In this document: one piece after another, positions 30,983 to 39,065 of the stretch
Position numbering within the stretch: position 1 is the stretch's first letter
Layout: each line of letters opens with the position of its first letter
DNA from: Thermoplasmata archaeon
GTDB taxonomy: Archaea; Thermoplasmatota; Thermoplasmata; Lutacidiplasmatales; UBA184
DNA length: 64,000 nt
Direction of reading: 5' to 3'
Assembly: GCA_035945215.1 (NCBI GenBank)
Contig: DASZAJ010000007.1
Location: 136,761 to 200,760, forward strand
Made by a program: the position numbers and the translations under genes
The notes under the pieces: model-generated
What the model was told of the DNA's origin: nothing
Database searches by the model: none
The model's input: the letters and a program-made list of their open reading frames with translations, nothing else

Positions 30983-31894
30983 TCAGATGTACGCCAGCGC
31001 GTCGAAGATGAGGTTCCCGAACACCGAACCGACGATCGCCCCGGCGAGCAAGAGGACCAAGAAGGGCACCTGCGGGGTCACCCAAACTCGTTGGACTCCT
31101 TGCGCGCGCAGCTCGGACTGCTGTTGGAGGCGCTGGGATCGATCCTCCTCCGCCGTCTCGGCCTCCTCGTCGCTCGACGCGAAGGTGGGATCCTTCAGCC
31201 AAACGAACCGGTCGGGGAGGTCGTCGACGGGGATCCGATACCCGGTGAAGCCCGTCCCGATCGTGAACTCCTTCCGGCGGAGGTTGACGATCGCCAAGGC
31301 GACCGGAACACTGATCGACAGGAGGGCCGCGTTCATGAGCAGCGTGAGCGAGAACGGATACACCGCGAGGATCCCCGTGGCGGTGGGGGGAGCCAGCAGC
31401 CCCGAGGTCGCCTGGAGGGGAAGCACGATCCCGGCGGAGATCAGCGCCTTCGCGTCGGCGCCCCCATAAAGCAGGCGCGCCTCGAACAGACCCCGCCCGA
31501 GGAGGATGCTCGCGAACGCCGCGATCACCGGCAGCGGAAGGCCCGTCGAGCCGACGCCGCTGCGAACTCCGATCACGCCCAGGTACGTCCCCACCGCCAG
31601 GAACCCCACGATCTCGATGTACCCAGGGGCCCGGTCGTCCCAGCGTTCGATCGCGAGGTCCCACGGGTAAAGGTGCTCGAGCGCGAGCGCGGAAACCGCC
31701 GCCCAGGTAAGCAGCGCGGTCGTTCCCTCGGGCGCGAGCAGAACTGCGCCGAGGAAAACGCCCACGGCTCCCAACGCCTGCCAGAGGTGATCGGAAACCT
31801 CTCGATACCTCCAGTCGTAGTAGGCAGCGACCCCGAACCCGACGAGGAGGACCGCGGTCTCCCCCATCATCGTCTCGGAAGGCCCCAGCCCCAT
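30983..31894 (-). CDS. A24-family archaeal prepilin/preflagellin peptidase (FlaK/PibD-like), with a C-terminal extra domain
   Basis: A polytopic membrane protein. Two conserved Asp are in [11 protein letters not shown] and [10 protein letters not shown] (a GxGD-like motif). The C-terminal ~100 aa is soluble plus a final TM. Confidence 0.75.
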
Positions 31895-35894: not shown

Positions 35895-37253
35895 ATGCGG
35901 CGCCGCTCGTCCGAGGACGACGAGCCCGAGCCGGAAGACGGCGACGAGGAGCCGGATGATGAGCCGTCGGGACCGCCGCGGAACCGCACCCGTCTGACGC
36001 GGGCCCGCCGGGCGCTGCGCCCCTGGAACGCGACCTCAAAGGCCCCCCCTCCCTCCGAACCCCCCGATCGGATCGACGAGGAGTCGGAGGATTCCGAGGA
36101 GCCCCCGCCGGGGCTCTTCCACCGGGTCCGCGCGCCGGTGTTCTTCCGAGCGCGGGACACGGTCTGGTTCGAGCCCCTGGTCGCTCTCGCCATCGTCGTC
36201 CTCATCCTCGTATCGTTGTACGCGTACACGACCAACTGGCCGCCCGCCTATGTCATCGAGTCGGACAGCATGCAGCACGGGGCCACCGACCAGGTCGGCC
36301 TCATCAACACGGGCGACCTGGTGCTGGCGCAGCGAGTGAACGCCTCCCTGGTCACCCCCTACTTCCCGGCGGAATCCTCTGGCTACCGGACTTACGGCGA
36401 GTACGGGGACGTGATCCTGTACCACCCGAATGGAGACCCAAACCAGGCGCCGATCATCCATCGCGCGATCCTCTCCATCGAATACGACGCCTCGAACCAC
36501 ACCTACTCGATACCCGCCTTGAGCGGTCTGGCGTGCGGCAATGCCCCGGGTGCGGCCTATCGCGTAGCCGCCCATCTTTCCGGATGCGGAGCCACGGGCG
36601 TGACTGGCGAGCTCACGCTGTACGGAGTCGGCTGGACCCACGCGATCGTGAACATCTCCCTCACCCAGGGCGTCTTGGGGGCCCATTCGGGCTTCCTGAC
36701 GATGGGCGACAACAACTACCTGCCCGGGAACCCAACGCAGGGGGAACCCGATCAACCGGTCTTCAGCACGCTTGTCGAGCCGGGCTGGGTAGTGGGCGTG
36801 GCCCGCGGGATGATACCGTGGTTCGGCGCCCTGAAGCTCCTGCTTTCCGGGGACGCCGGGATGGTGCCCGCCCAGTCCTGGGAATGGCTCGCCATCACCC
36901 TCATCGGCACCCTCCTGGCGGCCATGGGCATCCACTACGCCCTTCGGGCCGAAGGGATCGAGGACGAACGCCGGAAGGCCGATGAGGAGGAGGAAGAGGA
37001 TGAGCGGGAGGAGGAGGGCCGACCGCCCAGACGGTGGCGGACCTTGGTTCCGTGGCGAAGATCCCGCGACGATGATGACGCCGATGAGGAGGAGGAAGCT
37101 CGGCCACGACCTCGGAGAGGTAGGGCGCCTCCGGTGGAGGTTCGAAGGAGCGGGACCGATCGAAGAGCCCACCGCGGCGGTCGACCCAGGCCCTCGGTCG
37201 GTCGGCGGCGCGCTCGACGTCATCAACCCCCCTCCCGTTCCGACGAACTCTAG
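35895..37253 (+). CDS. Type I signal peptidase (S26/Sec11 family), with acidic N-terminal and charged C-terminal tails and a ~60-aa insertion
   Basis: Box B is ESDSMQHG (Ser), box C is GDLVL, box D is IIHRAI (His), and box E is MGDNNY (Asp). There are N- and C-terminal TM anchors. The N-terminus is EDDEPEPEDGDEEPDDEP and the C-terminus is EEEEEDEREEEGRPP followed by an R-rich stretch. Confidence 0.75.
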   Translation: MRRRSSEDDEPEPEDGDEEPDDEPSGPPRNRTRLTRARRALRPWNATSKAPPPSEPPDRIDEESEDSEEPPPGLFHRVRAPVFFRARDTVWFEPLVALAIVVLILVSLYAYTTNWPPAYVIESDSMQHGATDQVGLINTGDLVLAQRVNASLVTPYFPAESSGYRTYGEYGDVILYHPNGDPNQAPIIHRAILSIEYDASNHTYSIPALSGLACGNAPGAAYRVAAHLSGCGATGVTGELTLYGVGWTHAIVNISLTQGVLGAHSGFLTMGDNNYLPGNPTQGEPDQPVFSTLVEPGWVVGVARGMIPWFGALKLLLSGDAGMVPAQSWEWLAITLIGTLLAAMGIHYALRAEGIEDERRKADEEEEEDEREEEGRPPRRWRTLVPWRRSRDDDDADEEEEARPRPRRGRAPPVEVRRSGTDRRAHRGGRPRPSVGRRRARRHQPPSRSDEL

Positions 37254-37440
37254 GCCCTGGTCGCCGGGCGGCCGGAACGGGACTAGGGTGGACCGGTTTC
37301 GCGGACCGTCCCGTAGCAGGTCAAAGCTGGTTGGAATCTTCGGAGGGCTGGCTCCGAGTGCGGGGAGCGGAAAACGATGCTTGACCCAAGTGAAGAAGGG
37401 TGGGAAGGAAAAGGTTGGACACCCGGTCGTCGGGTCTTCC

Positions 37441-38010
37441 CTACGGTATCGCCGACTGGATCGAGCCGGAGTACGATCCGGTCCCGATGATGTTCAGCGA
37501 GTACCCCTGTCCCGCGATGCTCGCGGCGGTGATCAGCACCAGCTGGTCGCCGCTTGAGATCTGGGACGTTAGGGTGAGCGTTGCGCAGGCCGTCGGGTGC
37601 GGCGGGGTCGTCGGGGGACCGGCGGTCCAGCCCGACGCCGCCACGTAGTTCCCGACCGCGCAGTTGGTCACGTCTACTAGGGTGACCGCGTTGAACGCCT
37701 GGATGGTTCCCGCCGAGTTGACCAGCTGGAACTTCAGGCTGTTCGCGGTGACCCCGGCGCTGGCCGACTGGATCGAGATCGTATAGTTGAACCCATACGC
37801 CCCGTTCGGGCCGGCCGTCGCGCGCGAGACGGCCATGGCGCTACCCAACGGCGTGTTGCCCGGCCCTCGGGTCAGCCCCGAGATCAGGACGTACAGCACC
37901 GCGGCCAGCACTACCGTGATCGCCACGAGCAAGATCGTGGCGATGATCGGCGAAACTCCCCGCTCCGACTTCTTTCGCCAGGACCCACCCCGGCTTCTCC
38001 GCTTCGTCAT
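37441..38010 (-). CDS. Archaeal type IV pilin-like protein with a class III signal peptide (Pilin_N/DUF11-type)
   Basis: MTKRRSRGGSWRKKSERG|VSPIIATILLVAITVVLAAVLYVLISG is the canonical prepilin-peptidase processing motif plus a hydrophobic N-terminal helix. The C-terminal domain is Gly/Ser/Thr/Ala-rich, with one NYT sequon. Confidence 0.85.
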   Translation of the reverse strand: MTKRRSRGGSWRKKSERGVSPIIATILLVAITVVLAAVLYVLISGLTRGPGNTPLGSAMAVSRATAGPNGAYGFNYTISIQSASAGVTANSLKFQLVNSAGTIQAFNAVTLVDVTNCAVGNYVAASGWTAGPPTTPPHPTACATLTLTSQISSGDQLVLITAASIAGQGYSLNIIGTGSYSGSIQSAIP

Positions 38011-38042
38011 CTTCGAACCTTCCTTCTATCCCCGTCCAGTTC

Positions 38043-38606
38043 CTAGGGGATCGCCGACTGGATCGAGCCGGAGTACGATCCGGTCCCGATGATGTTCAGC
38101 GAGTACCCCTGTCCCGCGATGCTCGCGGCGGTGATCAGCACCAGCTGGTCGCCGCTCGAGATCTGGGACGTCAGGGTGAGCGACCCGCACACCGCCGGAT
38201 GGGGTGGCGTGGTGGGCGGACCCGCAGTCCAGCCCGAAGCCGCTACGAAGTTCCCGACCGCACAGTTGGTCACGTCAATCAGGGTGACCGCGTTGAACGC
38301 CTGGATGGTTCCCGCCGAGTTGACCAGCTGGAACTTCAGGCTGTTCGCGGTGACGCCCGCGCTCGCCGACTGGATCGAGATCGTATAGTTGAACCCATAC
38401 GCCCCGTTCGGGCCGGCGGTGGCCCCCGAAACCGCCATGGCGCTGCCGAGCGGCGTGTTGCCCGGGCCCCGGGTGAGCCCGGAGATCAGGACGTACAGCA
38501 CTGCCGCGAGCACCACGGTGATCGCCACCAGCAGGATCGTCGCGATGATTGGCGATACCCCTCGCCCGGGCCGCTTTCTCCAAGTCCTCCCTCTCAACGT
38601 CGCCAT
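38043..38606 (-). CDS. Archaeal type IV pilin-like protein, tandem paralog of 37441-38010
   Basis: Its translation after MATLRGRTWRKRPGRG|VSPIIATILLVAITVVLAAVLYVLISG is nearly identical to the upstream copy. The internal Met is chosen by analogy with the first copy. The tool ORF has a 37-aa spurious-looking extension. Confidence 0.82.
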   Translation of the reverse strand: MATLRGRTWRKRPGRGVSPIIATILLVAITVVLAAVLYVLISGLTRGPGNTPLGSAMAVSGATAGPNGAYGFNYTISIQSASAGVTANSLKFQLVNSAGTIQAFNAVTLIDVTNCAVGNFVAASGWTAGPPTTPPHPAVCGSLTLTSQISSGDQLVLITAASIAGQGYSLNIIGTGSYSGSIQSAIP

Positions 38607-39065
38607 GTTTGGTTTCGCTCCGTTCAGGGCATTGCCCCGCAGGCGGAGTGTTTGCACAGGGGTGGTATTTGAATCCGTCGGCTTTTTTCGGCACTTTGTC
38701 GAATTGGACATCGGCATTAGTCGAATGCGTGTGAAGGGGTATCGTACGCCACACCCGTTTCGACGAGAGGACGGAGGAGGCGGCGTCGGACGGGAAGGGT
38801 CGCCGGAGGGCCCCCCGCCACCCTCGACCCTTGACCGGCCGCCCGCGATCGCGCTTGGGATGGAGCACCCCAGATGCGATCCGTCGCCAGCGGGCGGCTT
38901 GGGTATGCGATGGGAATCCCGGCCAACGAATAGTAACCGGGAACTCTCGGACCGAGGTGGGTCCGGTGGGTGCCGGACCCATCGCCGATCGCTCTCGGGA
39001 CACGGGGCTGCTCGACGGATCTCGTAACGGTTATCGGGCCACGCCGATGCAACGGGACAACGTTC

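What the first reader, a model, noticed from the sequence alone, without database searches (positions are those of the whole stretch)
37441..38606. Near-identical tandem pilin paralogs with divergence confined to the leader peptide and one short patch
The two pilin genes are direct repeats separated by 32 bp. Their DNA is >90% identical across the mature region (the same SPIIATILLVAITVVLAAVLYVLISGLTRGPGNTPLGSAMAVS...SIQSAIP). Differences are concentrated in the pre-cleavage leader (MTKRRSRGGSWRKKSERG vs MATLRGRTWRKRPGRG), two to three scattered substitutions (R/G, V/I, Y/F) and a patch of TACATLTLT vs AVCGSLTLT. This pattern suggests recent duplication or ongoing gene conversion, with localized diversification, possibly in an exposed epitope. 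Such tandem repeats are also hotspots for recombination-driven copy-number variation.
Basis: seen in the sequence. Interest (0 to 1): 0.55.

Follow-up and report, generated by a model that had tools for sequence, protein, structure and literature searches.

The report
Tandem archaeal pilin genes, gene-converted
Two adjacent genes for the building block of a cell-surface fibre (type IV pilus) in an uncultured Thermoplasmata archaeon form an old gene pair whose copies are kept almost identical by DNA copying between them and by strong selection; this is a well-known evolutionary process, seen here in a little-studied group.

Summary
The two minus-strand genes exist as described: A is 37441-38010, B is 38043-38606, and the spacer is 32 bp. 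Both are archaeal type IV pilins. The closest solved relative is the Cuniculiplasma CdiPB pilin.

The mature regions are 89.9% identical, with 52 differences in 47 codons, 40 of them synonymous. These differences form a mosaic:
- Two blocks (helix/neck and a Cys-loop region) are nearly saturated at silent sites (dS 0.77-0.93).
- Two blocks are almost identical (dS 0.09).
- The contrast is significant (P<=1e-4 by permutation; Fisher 3.7e-6).

Five related MAGs carry the same pilin pair in the same gene neighbourhood, but their copies are only 52-69% identical. The pair is therefore old. In this lineage it was homogenised, most likely by interlocus gene conversion, with two recent tracts.

The "variable patch" lies inside an unconverted block, so it is left-over divergence in a hypervariable loop. 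There is no sign of positive selection (segment dN/dS 0.09).

The genes appear to form one operon, with a family-typical promoter upstream of B and a conserved T-rich motif after A. A prepilin peptidase gene lies 5.5 kb away, and no assembly ATPase is in the window.

Overall this is an ordinary, nicely documented case of concerted evolution.

The parts
38043..38606 (-). Pilin gene B, the upstream copy (187 aa). It has a 16-aa class III leader, MATLRGRTWRKRPGRG, with predicted cleavage before VSPIIATILL.
   Evidence: Pfam Pilin_N scores 30.0 bits (cut-off 25.2) and TIGR02537 scores 46.5 bits (cut-off 20). B is identical to database protein P0001, named 'archaellin/type IV pilin N-terminal domain-containing protein [Thermoplasmata archaeon]'.
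37441..38010 (-). Pilin gene A, the downstream copy (189 aa). It has an 18-aa leader, MTKRRSRGGSWRKKSERG.
   Evidence: Pfam Pilin_N scores 30.8 bits and TIGR02537 scores 52.3 bits. The AlphaFold model has pLDDT 86.5 and shows helix 20-44 followed by a beta-sandwich. The family profile hits PDB 8REY, the C. divulgatum pilin, at E 2.3e-10, and that chain starts at VSPIIATILL.
38011..38042 (-). 32-bp spacer containing an AGGAAGG Shine-Dalgarno-like element 8 nt before the ATG of A. It has no promoter module, so A is probably co-transcribed with B.
   Evidence: Sequence. The promoter module found upstream of every independently spaced pilin gene in relatives is absent here.
38607..38716 (-). Promoter and 5'UTR module of B. 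It contains GTCGA-like boxes, the TATA-like GATTCAAATAC (38665-38675), the hairpin GCGGGGCAATGCCC (38627-38640) and GGAGC (38617-38621).
   Evidence: An alignment of 11 upstream regions from 7 loci shows the same ordered elements. Coordinates were checked.
37407..37418 (-). CCAACCTTTTCC motif, T-rich and terminator-like, about 22 nt after the stop codon of A.
   Evidence: The core CCAACC..TTCC is invariant after the downstream pilin in all 6 syntenic loci. It also follows the upstream pilin in two of the widely spaced loci, L001 and L006. It occurs only once in the window.
37679..37815 (-). Recent conversion tract 1 in A (mature codons ~48-92, beta-strand core). Its partner in B is 38281-38417.
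   Evidence: 3 differences in 137 nt (97.8%) and dS 0.09. In every other pair compared, 21-50% of identical-amino-acid codons in this segment differ synonymously, against 7% here.
38281..38417 (-). Recent conversion tract 1 in B.
   Evidence: Same as for the partner tract in A.
37448..37569 (-). Recent conversion tract 2 in A (mature codons ~130-169, C-terminal strands). Its partner in B is 38050-38171.
   Evidence: 1 difference in 122 nt (99.2%), including a 107-nt identical run. Permutation gives P<=1e-4 for the longest runs.
38050..38171 (-). Recent conversion tract 2 in B.
   Evidence: Same as for the partner tract in A.
37816..37956 (-). Old, unconverted block 1 in A (mature codons 1-47: helix plus neck). 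Its partner in B is 38418-38558.
   Evidence: 23 differences in 141 nt, with 20 synonymous codons and 1 amino-acid change; dS 0.77 and dN 0.02.
37570..37678 (-). Old, unconverted block 2 in A (mature codons ~93-129: Cys-Cys loop region). It contains the patch TACAT (37579-37593), which corresponds to AVCGS in B (38181-38195). The partner block in B is 38172-38280.
   Evidence: 23 differences in 109 nt; dS 0.93, dN 0.08, dN/dS 0.086. This is the most variable and indel-rich part of the family alignment.
30983..31894 (-). Archaeal A24 prepilin (class III signal) peptidase gene, the likely processing enzyme for A and B.
   Evidence: Pfam Arc_PepC_II scores 36.1 bits (cut-off 29.9). Peptidase_A24 scores 20.1 bits, which is below its cut-off. 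A gene with an Arc_PepC_II hit holds the same syntenic position in L001 and L002.

Best explanation
A and B are two functional, probably co-transcribed type IV pilin genes of a Thermoplasmata archaeon. Each encodes a short basic leader that an A24 prepilin peptidase removes before VSPIIATILL. The mature protein has a hydrophobic N-terminal helix, which would pack in the filament core, and a beta-sandwich head.

The pair is ancestral. Related genomes have the same two genes between the same neighbours, but there the copies have diverged to 52-69% identity. In this lineage the mature-coding regions were homogenised by non-reciprocal recombination (interlocus gene conversion) in at least two layers:
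1. An older event covered essentially the whole mature region and made both copies resemble the upstream-type gene. Silent sites have since drifted almost to saturation.
2. Two recent tracts of about 120-140 nt reset divergence to about 0.09.

Strong purifying selection (overall dN/dS about 0.06) keeps both proteins nearly the same. The cell therefore makes two near-identical isoforms of what is probably its major pilin.

Shown here: the pilin identity, the mosaic, the synteny, and the within-genome clustering of the copies. Inferred: conversion as the mechanism, co-transcription, and cleavage and assembly.
For: Pilin identity:
- Pilin_N and TIGR02537 score above their cut-offs.
- The family profile hits 8REY (CdiPB), whose chain begins at the predicted cleavage site.
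- The AlphaFold model shows a helix plus a beta-sandwich.
- An A24 peptidase gene lies at 30983-31894.

Mosaic:
- dS by segment is 0.77, 0.09, 0.93 and 0.09.
- The longest identical runs are 107 and 74 nt (permutation P<=1e-4).
- At four-fold sites, 30 of 59 differ in the old blocks against 5 of 51 in the recent blocks (Fisher P 3.7e-6).

Not regional silent-site constraint:
- In 14 other pairwise comparisons, the same two segments show 21-50% synonymous codon differences.

Old pair:
- L001, L002, L005, L006 and L007 all carry MFS | pilin, pilin | ~400-aa protein, OFeT, Trm112, eIF2-gamma.
- Within-pair identity in those loci is 52-69%.
- A and B cluster together with 100% bootstrap support, and with L005_up at 75%.

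Positional orthology rather than fresh duplication:
- Similarity ends at the stop codon, and it decays within the leader.
- The promoter module is present only upstream of B, and the terminator-like motif only after A. L005 is arranged the same way, with a 35-bp spacer.

Conversion recurs in the family:
- L006 has identical leaders and near-identical helix DNA, but a globular domain only 51% identical.
- L013 and L015 have homogenised helix DNA.
- L069 has three tandem copies at 97-98% identity with clustered differences.
Against: - No reads or population data are available, so conversion is inferred from pattern alone.
- The older layer could equally be a re-duplication of the upstream gene that replaced the downstream one.
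- Neither copy shows a positional-orthology signal in the old blocks. Both look 'up'-type at codons 48-171 and 'dn'-type at codons 37-47.
- Spacer similarity to L005 is weak.
- The rest of the genome is not available, so a third paralog acting as donor cannot be excluded.
- No assembly ATPase or platform gene is in the window, so pilus formation is inferred only by homology.
- The window's own contig could not be retrieved for checking.
Confidence: 0.68

Rival explanations
1. One reading: a recent tandem duplication was followed by localized diversification of the leader and of one exposed patch.
For: The proteins are 96% identical in the mature part. The amino-acid changes cluster in the leader and in one loop, and that loop is the most variable region of the family.
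Against: - Half of the mature region has near-saturated silent divergence (dS 0.77-0.93), including 14 of 36 helix codons with no amino-acid change.
- The patch sits in a block with dN/dS 0.086.
- Sequence just outside the CDS shows no similarity, which is not expected for a fresh duplication unit.
- The pair is syntenic in 5 other genomes.
Confidence: 0.05
2. The older layer is a lineage-specific re-duplication rather than conversion. The downstream ancestral pilin was lost and the upstream one was duplicated in its place. The new copies then diverged, and short conversion tracts arose later.
For: Both copies are closer to L005_up than to L005_dn over codons 48-171. Neither copy shows positional orthology in the old blocks.
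Against: - The transcription-unit layout matches L005: promoter module before the first gene, a spacer of about 32-35 bp, and CCAACCTTTTCC after the second gene.
- Similarity stops at the CDS boundaries.
- Codons 37-47 of both copies match L005_dn, not L005_up. This fits bidirectional exchange better than a single clean duplication.
Confidence: 0.13
3. The copies were recently identical, and the divergent blocks were imported into one of them. The donor would be a diverged allele of a related strain or a third pilin paralog elsewhere in the genome.
For: The mosaic by itself cannot show which blocks are 'new'. Other Thermoplasmata genomes carry several unlinked pilin loci; for example, one contig holds L022, L026 and L045.
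Against: - This requires two separate imports plus an unrelated leader, each preserving the protein almost exactly.
- No close relative was found in the metagenome scan, and the nearest homolog is 74-77% identical.
- Flank dissimilarity argues against a recent duplication as the starting point.
Confidence: 0.09
4. Assembly artefact: strain variants of a single gene, or of two genes, were stitched together in a metagenome assembly, producing an apparent mosaic tandem pair.
For: The source is a MAG. Identical runs of 74-107 nt can confuse de Bruijn graph assemblers.
Against: - The same two-gene arrangement is seen in at least 5 independent MAGs, and one has the same short spacer.
- The leaders, the spacer and the flanks are unique sequences that anchor each copy.
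- Both ORFs are intact, with strongly purifying substitution patterns.
Confidence: 0.04
5. The low-divergence blocks reflect nucleotide-level constraint, such as mRNA structure or codon selection, rather than recombination.
For: None specific. This is the generic alternative for regional variation in dS.
Against: In 14 other comparisons, both between orthologs and between paralogs, the same segments show ordinary synonymous divergence (0.21-0.50 of identical-amino-acid codons).
Confidence: 0.01

Closest known systems
CdiPB/CdiPA pilins of Cuniculiplasma divulgatum (Thermoplasmatales), PDB 8REY, PMC12448462
   Same: - The mature N-terminus is the same (VSPIIATILL...). The family profile hits at E 2.3e-10 and the single sequence at 5.7e-6.
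- Two pilin genes lie next to each other and far from the assembly-machinery operon (862 bp apart and about 500 kb away in C. divulgatum). Here too, no ATPase is in the window.
   Different: - The similarity is carried mainly by the helix.
- The head domain here is larger (171 aa mature against 135 aa).
- In C. divulgatum the neighbouring pilin CdiPA is structurally distinct and weakly expressed, so it is probably a minor pilin. Here the two copies are 96% identical and only 32 bp apart.
Haloferax volcanii PilA1-6 pilins
   Different: The H. volcanii genes are dispersed rather than a tandem operon. Their heads differ, and I found no report of gene conversion among them.
Interlocus gene conversion / concerted evolution of tandem paralogs (general; e.g. 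bacterial tuf genes, PMC5485169; mosaic divergence in tandem paralogues, bioRxiv 10.1101/2025.10.29.685298)
   Same: - Paralogs within a genome are more alike than orthologs between genomes.
- Tracts of about a hundred nucleotides of near identity alternate with diverged blocks.
- Similarity is confined to the coding sequence.
   Different: Nothing is mechanistically different. The only new element is the gene family and the taxon.
Neisseria pilE/pilS antigenic variation
   Same: The genes are pilin genes. There are mosaic exchanges of short tracts between linked copies, and the variable residues lie in a disulfide-bounded loop.
   Different: - Both copies here are full-length, with leader, start codon and ribosome-binding site. 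There are no silent, truncated cassettes.
- The exchange here homogenises the copies rather than diversifying them.
- dN/dS is far below 1.

Membership tests
Archaeal type IV pilin (class III signal peptide, Pilin_N / TIGR02537) | The N-terminal domain model scores above its curated cut-off. | tested here: met
   PF07790 scores 30.8 and 30.0 bits against a cut-off of 25.2. TIGR02537 scores 52.3 and 46.5 bits against a cut-off of 20.
Archaeal type IV pilin (class III signal peptide, Pilin_N / TIGR02537) | A short basic leader ends in [KR]G and is followed by a hydrophobic helix of about 25 residues. The cleavage position matches a solved relative. | tested here: met
   Both copies read ...ERG|VSPIIATILLVAITVVLAAVLYVLISG or ...GRG|VSPIIATILLVAITVVLAAVLYVLISG. 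The 8REY chain starts at VSPIIATILL. The model helix spans residues 20-44. Cleavage itself was not shown.
Archaeal type IV pilin (class III signal peptide, Pilin_N / TIGR02537) | A beta-sandwich head of the archaellin/pilin type. | tested here: met
Archaeal type IV pilin (class III signal peptide, Pilin_N / TIGR02537) | A cognate A24 prepilin peptidase is encoded in the genome. | tested here: met
   The gene at 30983-31894(-) scores 36.1 bits for Arc_PepC_II, above the cut-off of 29.9.
Archaeal type IV pilin (class III signal peptide, Pilin_N / TIGR02537) | An assembly ATPase (PilB/AapE-like) and a membrane platform protein are present. | not testable with these tools
   None is in the 64-kb window. 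Walker-A motifs occur only in a kinase-like ORF, an ABC-type ATPase-like ORF and a MeaB-like ORF. The rest of the genome is not available.
CdiP-type pilus of Thermoplasmatales | Homology to CdiPB over the whole subunit. | tested here: inconclusive
   The profile match has E 2.3e-10 over residues 19-144 against 1-118. The single-sequence alignment is strong only in the helix, and the head domains differ in size.
Concerted evolution by interlocus gene conversion | Paralogs within a genome are more similar to each other than to their positional orthologs. | tested here: met
   A and B are 92% identical (96% in the mature part). Against the L005 genes they are 68-77% identical. Other within-genome pairs are 52-69% identical. 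The A+B clade has bootstrap support 1.0.
Concerted evolution by interlocus gene conversion | The silent-site divergence forms a statistically significant mosaic that regional constraint cannot explain. | tested here: met
   Permutation P<=1e-4 and Fisher P 3.7e-6. Control comparisons show normal synonymous divergence in the same segments.
Concerted evolution by interlocus gene conversion | The flanks are non-homologous between the copies but orthologous to the flanks in relatives. | tested here: met
   There is no similarity after the stop codons. The promoter module and the CCAACCTTTTCC motif are shared with relatives. Spacer orthology with L005 is weak.
Concerted evolution by interlocus gene conversion | Direct observation of conversion events, through population variants or reads. 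| not testable with these tools
   No reads are available. No close relatives were found in the metagenome scan, and the window's own contig is not retrievable.
Programmed pilin antigenic variation (Neisseria pilE/pilS type) | Silent, promoterless, 5'-truncated donor cassettes. | tested here: not met
   Both copies have a start codon, a leader and an SD-like site.
Programmed pilin antigenic variation (Neisseria pilE/pilS type) | An excess of non-synonymous change in the variable regions. | tested here: not met
   dN/dS is 0.086 in the block that contains the patch and 0.056 overall. The 5-codon patch on its own is too small to test.

The most novel reading that the evidence does not exclude
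The Thermoplasmata pilin cassettes might form a recombination-driven variation system. Short conversion tracts would be exchanged among tandem pilin genes, and possibly unlinked ones. This would repeatedly reshuffle head-domain segments, including the disulfide-bounded loop, while the invariant helix keeps the subunits compatible for assembly. The result would be pilus surface variants, for example to escape viruses that use pili as receptors. This would be an archaeal counterpart of bacterial pilin variation. Hints in its favour are that mosaics appear in several lineages, with tracts in different places (window, L006, L013, L015, L069).
Probability: 0.06. Interest if true: 0.7.

Novelty: new member of a known kind. 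Interest (0 to 1): 0.3.

Why it matters
The finding adds a clean, quantified example of interlocus gene conversion in archaeal surface-filament genes, a family for which I found no report of it.

It also shows that paired pilin genes are a conserved feature of many Thermoplasmata. Their similarity ranges from 41% to 98% in the head domain.

For annotation, it corrects the start of gene B. It also defines a conserved promoter, 5'UTR and terminator layout for these highly expressed genes.

It does not reveal a new mechanism or a new kind of system.

Tried and rejected
1. I tried to retrieve the window's own contig and cluster by exact protein look-up. It was not on record, so no wider genome context and no accession were obtained.
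2. A metagenome scan for close relatives of A found none, so no strain-level comparison was possible.
4. A Biopython bootstrap run timed out and was replaced by my own neighbour-joining bootstrap.
5. I looked for orthology of the spacer with L005 and L003. The alignment is too short and weak to use.
6. I looked for positional orthology of the leaders and old blocks (A with downstream genes, B with upstream genes). There is no clear signal, because silent sites are saturated.
7. I looked for further pilin genes and for a PilB-type ATPase in the window. None was found.
8. Regional synonymous constraint was considered and rejected on the basis.
9. Literature searches for gene conversion in archaeal pilins or archaellins returned nothing specific.

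Full report
**What is at the coordinates**

The window has 69.5% G+C. Long ORFs therefore occur on both strands, but only the minus-strand ORFs at 37441-38010 (A, 189 aa) and 38043-38606 (B, 187 aa) have homologs. They are direct repeats separated by 32 bp.

Both match the archaeal pilin N-terminal models above the curated thresholds (PF07790, TIGR02537). B is identical to a database protein named [quoted passage not shown], carried on a 294-kb MAG contig.

A profile of 53 family members (alignment A1) hits PDB 8REY at E 2.3e-10. 8REY is the cryoEM structure of the Cuniculiplasma divulgatum pilus subunit CdiPB. Its chain begins VSPIIATILL. This supports cleavage of A and B after ...RG.

An A24-type prepilin peptidase gene lies at 30983-31894. 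No other pilin gene and no PilB-like ATPase is in the window. This resembles C. divulgatum, where the pilin genes lie about 500 kb from the machinery operon.

**Checking the observation**

The amino-acid description is right. The leaders differ strongly, with a two-codon indel. The 171-residue mature proteins differ at 7 positions: R/G, V/I, Y/F and TACAT/AVCGS.

The DNA statement is not right. The mature regions differ at 52 of 516 nt (89.9% identity), and 40 codons differ synonymously. The differences form a mosaic:

| Mature codons | Region | DNA identity | dS | Amino-acid changes |
|---|---|---|---|---|
| 1-47 | helix and neck | 83.7% | 0.77 | 1 |
| 48-92 | beta-strand core | 97.8% | 0.09 | 0 |
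| 93-129 | Cys-loop region | 78.9% | 0.93 (dN 0.08) | 6 |
| 130-171 | C-terminal strands | 99.2% | 0.09 | 0 |

Identical runs as long as those observed (107 and 74 nt) arose in no more than 1 of 10,000 permutations that kept the codon-position classes. At four-fold sites, 30 of 59 differ in the old blocks against 5 of 51 in the recent blocks (Fisher P 3.7e-6). With this base composition, saturation is about 0.56-0.63.

**The comparative evidence**

Five other Thermoplasmata MAG loci (L001, L002, L005, L006, L007) carry two same-strand pilin genes in the same neighbourhood. The order is an MFS transporter, the two pilins, a conserved ~400-460-aa protein, OFeT_1, (cyclase), Trm112, eIF2-gamma and S6e. 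The pair therefore predates these lineages.

In those loci the two copies are only 52-69% identical, against 92% here (96% in the mature part). In a neighbour-joining tree, A and B are sisters (bootstrap 1.0) and group with the upstream gene of L005 (0.75). The downstream genes of L001 and L002 group by position (1.0).

The low-divergence segments of the window pair are not generally constrained at silent sites. In 14 other orthologous or paralogous comparisons, 21-50% of identical-amino-acid codons in those segments differ, against 7% here.

Similarity between A and B ends at the stop codon and decays within the leader. The sequences after the two stops are unrelated.

Upstream of B lies an ordered set of elements: GTCGA-like boxes, GATTCAAATAC, a GGGG-N-CCCC hairpin and a GGAG site. 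The same set is found upstream of every independently spaced pilin gene in the relatives. Because it lies inside the 38607-38717 ORF extension, that extension is almost certainly spurious.

Gene A has only a 32-bp spacer with an AGGAAGG site. L005 is arranged the same way, with a 35-bp spacer.

A CCAACCTTTTCC motif follows the downstream pilin gene in all six syntenic loci. It also follows the upstream gene in L001 and L006, two of the loci where the genes are far apart. It occurs once in the window, after A. The simplest reading is a B-A operon inherited from the common ancestor with L005.

**Interpretation**

The pair is old. Its present similarity results from homogenisation in this lineage combined with strong purifying selection (overall dN/dS 0.056).

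There are at least two layers. An older event left both copies "upstream-type" over codons 48-171 and "downstream-type" over codons 37-47. Silent sites have since diverged nearly to saturation. Two recent tracts of about 120-140 nt came later.

The amino-acid patch lies in an old block (dN/dS 0.086). It is also in the most variable and indel-rich loop of the family, between two conserved cysteines. It is therefore residual divergence that escaped the recent tracts, not a detectable hotspot of diversification.

Recombination between tandem pilin genes seems recurrent in the family:
- L006 has identical leaders and near-identical helix DNA, next to a head domain only 51% identical.
- L013 and L015 have homogenised helix DNA.
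- A Methanomassiliicoccales MAG (L069) has three tandem copies at 97-98% identity, with differences clustered at the ends.

Across 88 loci, 26 same-strand adjacent pilin pairs were found. Their head-domain identity ranges from 41% to 98%.

**Limits**

- Conversion is inferred from pattern, and no reads or strain variants were available.
- The older layer could be a re-duplication rather than a conversion.
- A donor elsewhere in the genome cannot be excluded.
- An assembly chimera is unlikely, given the independent MAGs with the same layout, but it was not tested.
- Cleavage, co-transcription, glycosylation of the single NYT sequon and filament formation are all inferred by homology.

**Verdict**

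Gene conversion is supported. Recent duplication and epitope diversification are not.

This is a new example of a well-known process in a known gene family. I found no prior report for archaeal pilins. Interest is modest.

Noticed in passing
window 38607-38716 (-); also L001, L002, L003, L005, L006, L007 upstream of pilin genes: A conserved cis-regulatory layout lies upstream of pilin genes. Its order is two or three GTCGA/TCGAC-like boxes at about -105 to -75, GTTGAAATAC (TATA-like) at about -60, a CGTTGC element, a GGGG-N4-7-CCCC hairpin and GGAGG just before the ATG. The boxes look like a transcription-factor binding site. The hairpin stem never varies, so there is no covariation support for it.
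   Followed up: partly
window 38607-38717 (-): The mechanical ORF for gene B starts at the ATG at 38717 and gives 224 aa. The extra 37 codons overlap the conserved promoter module. Homolog leaders are 15-18 aa, so the real start is 38606.
   Followed up: yes
window 35895-37253 (+); orthologs in L001, L002, L005, L006, L007: A conserved 373-460-aa membrane protein lies convergent to the pilin pair and has no Pfam hit. It carries invariant SxSMxH, IHR and GDNN motifs that resemble Sec11-type signal peptidase I. The supporting hits are weak: TIGR02228 at E 5e-4 (below cut-off) and SEC11A 7P2P at E 0.08. It also has a large Cys-containing insertion, acidic and basic low-complexity tails, and a C-terminal transmembrane segment. 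It may be a divergent archaeal signal peptidase.
   Followed up: partly
window 37407-37418 (-); 3' flanks of pilin genes in L001, L002, L005, L006, L007: The motif CCAACC(T/C)(T/C)TTCC occurs 20-45 nt after the stop codon of the downstream pilin gene in every syntenic locus, and also after the upstream gene in L001 and L006. It is often preceded by a G+C-rich hairpin. It is unique in the 64-kb window. It is probably a termination signal specific to these highly expressed genes.
   Followed up: partly
L069 5514-7075 (+) (Methanomassiliicoccales MAG CAVWKV010000084.1): Three tandem pilin genes have mature regions 94.6-98.6% identical at the DNA level. Long stretches are perfectly identical, and the differences cluster at the helix and neck and at the extreme 3' end. 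This is an independent case of the same phenomenon.
   Followed up: partly
L006 7010-7585 and 8001-8576; L013 6043-7099; L015 6043-7084: In these pairs, the leader and/or helix-coding DNA is nearly identical between the copies, while the head domains are only 51-72% identical. This is the opposite tract placement to the window. L006_up and L005_up were also called without their leaders in the source annotation.
   Followed up: partly
alignment A1 (53 proteins); 14 proteins: The first 36 mature residues (VSPIIATILLVAITVVLAAVLYVLISGLT[RK]GPGNTP) are almost invariant across proteins that are otherwise 45-65% identical. A1 has 33 invariant columns, 31 of them in this N-terminal stretch. Silent sites in the stretch are saturated. 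This indicates extreme purifying selection on the filament-core helix, reminiscent of the shared H-domain of the Haloferax PilA1-6 pilins.
   Followed up: partly
L018, L024, L025 (record titles): Contigs that encode this archaeal pilin family are filed under bacterial MAGs ('bacterium', 'Acidimicrobiales bacterium', 'Proteobacteria bacterium'). This is probably binning contamination in those public assemblies.
   Followed up: no
window 37787-38092 (+), 38089-38388 (+), 38389-39027 (+), 38275-39003 (-): Long ORFs antisense to, or out of frame with, the pilin genes are by-products of the 69.5% G+C content. The antisense ORFs are themselves duplicated because the pilin genes are.
   Followed up: no
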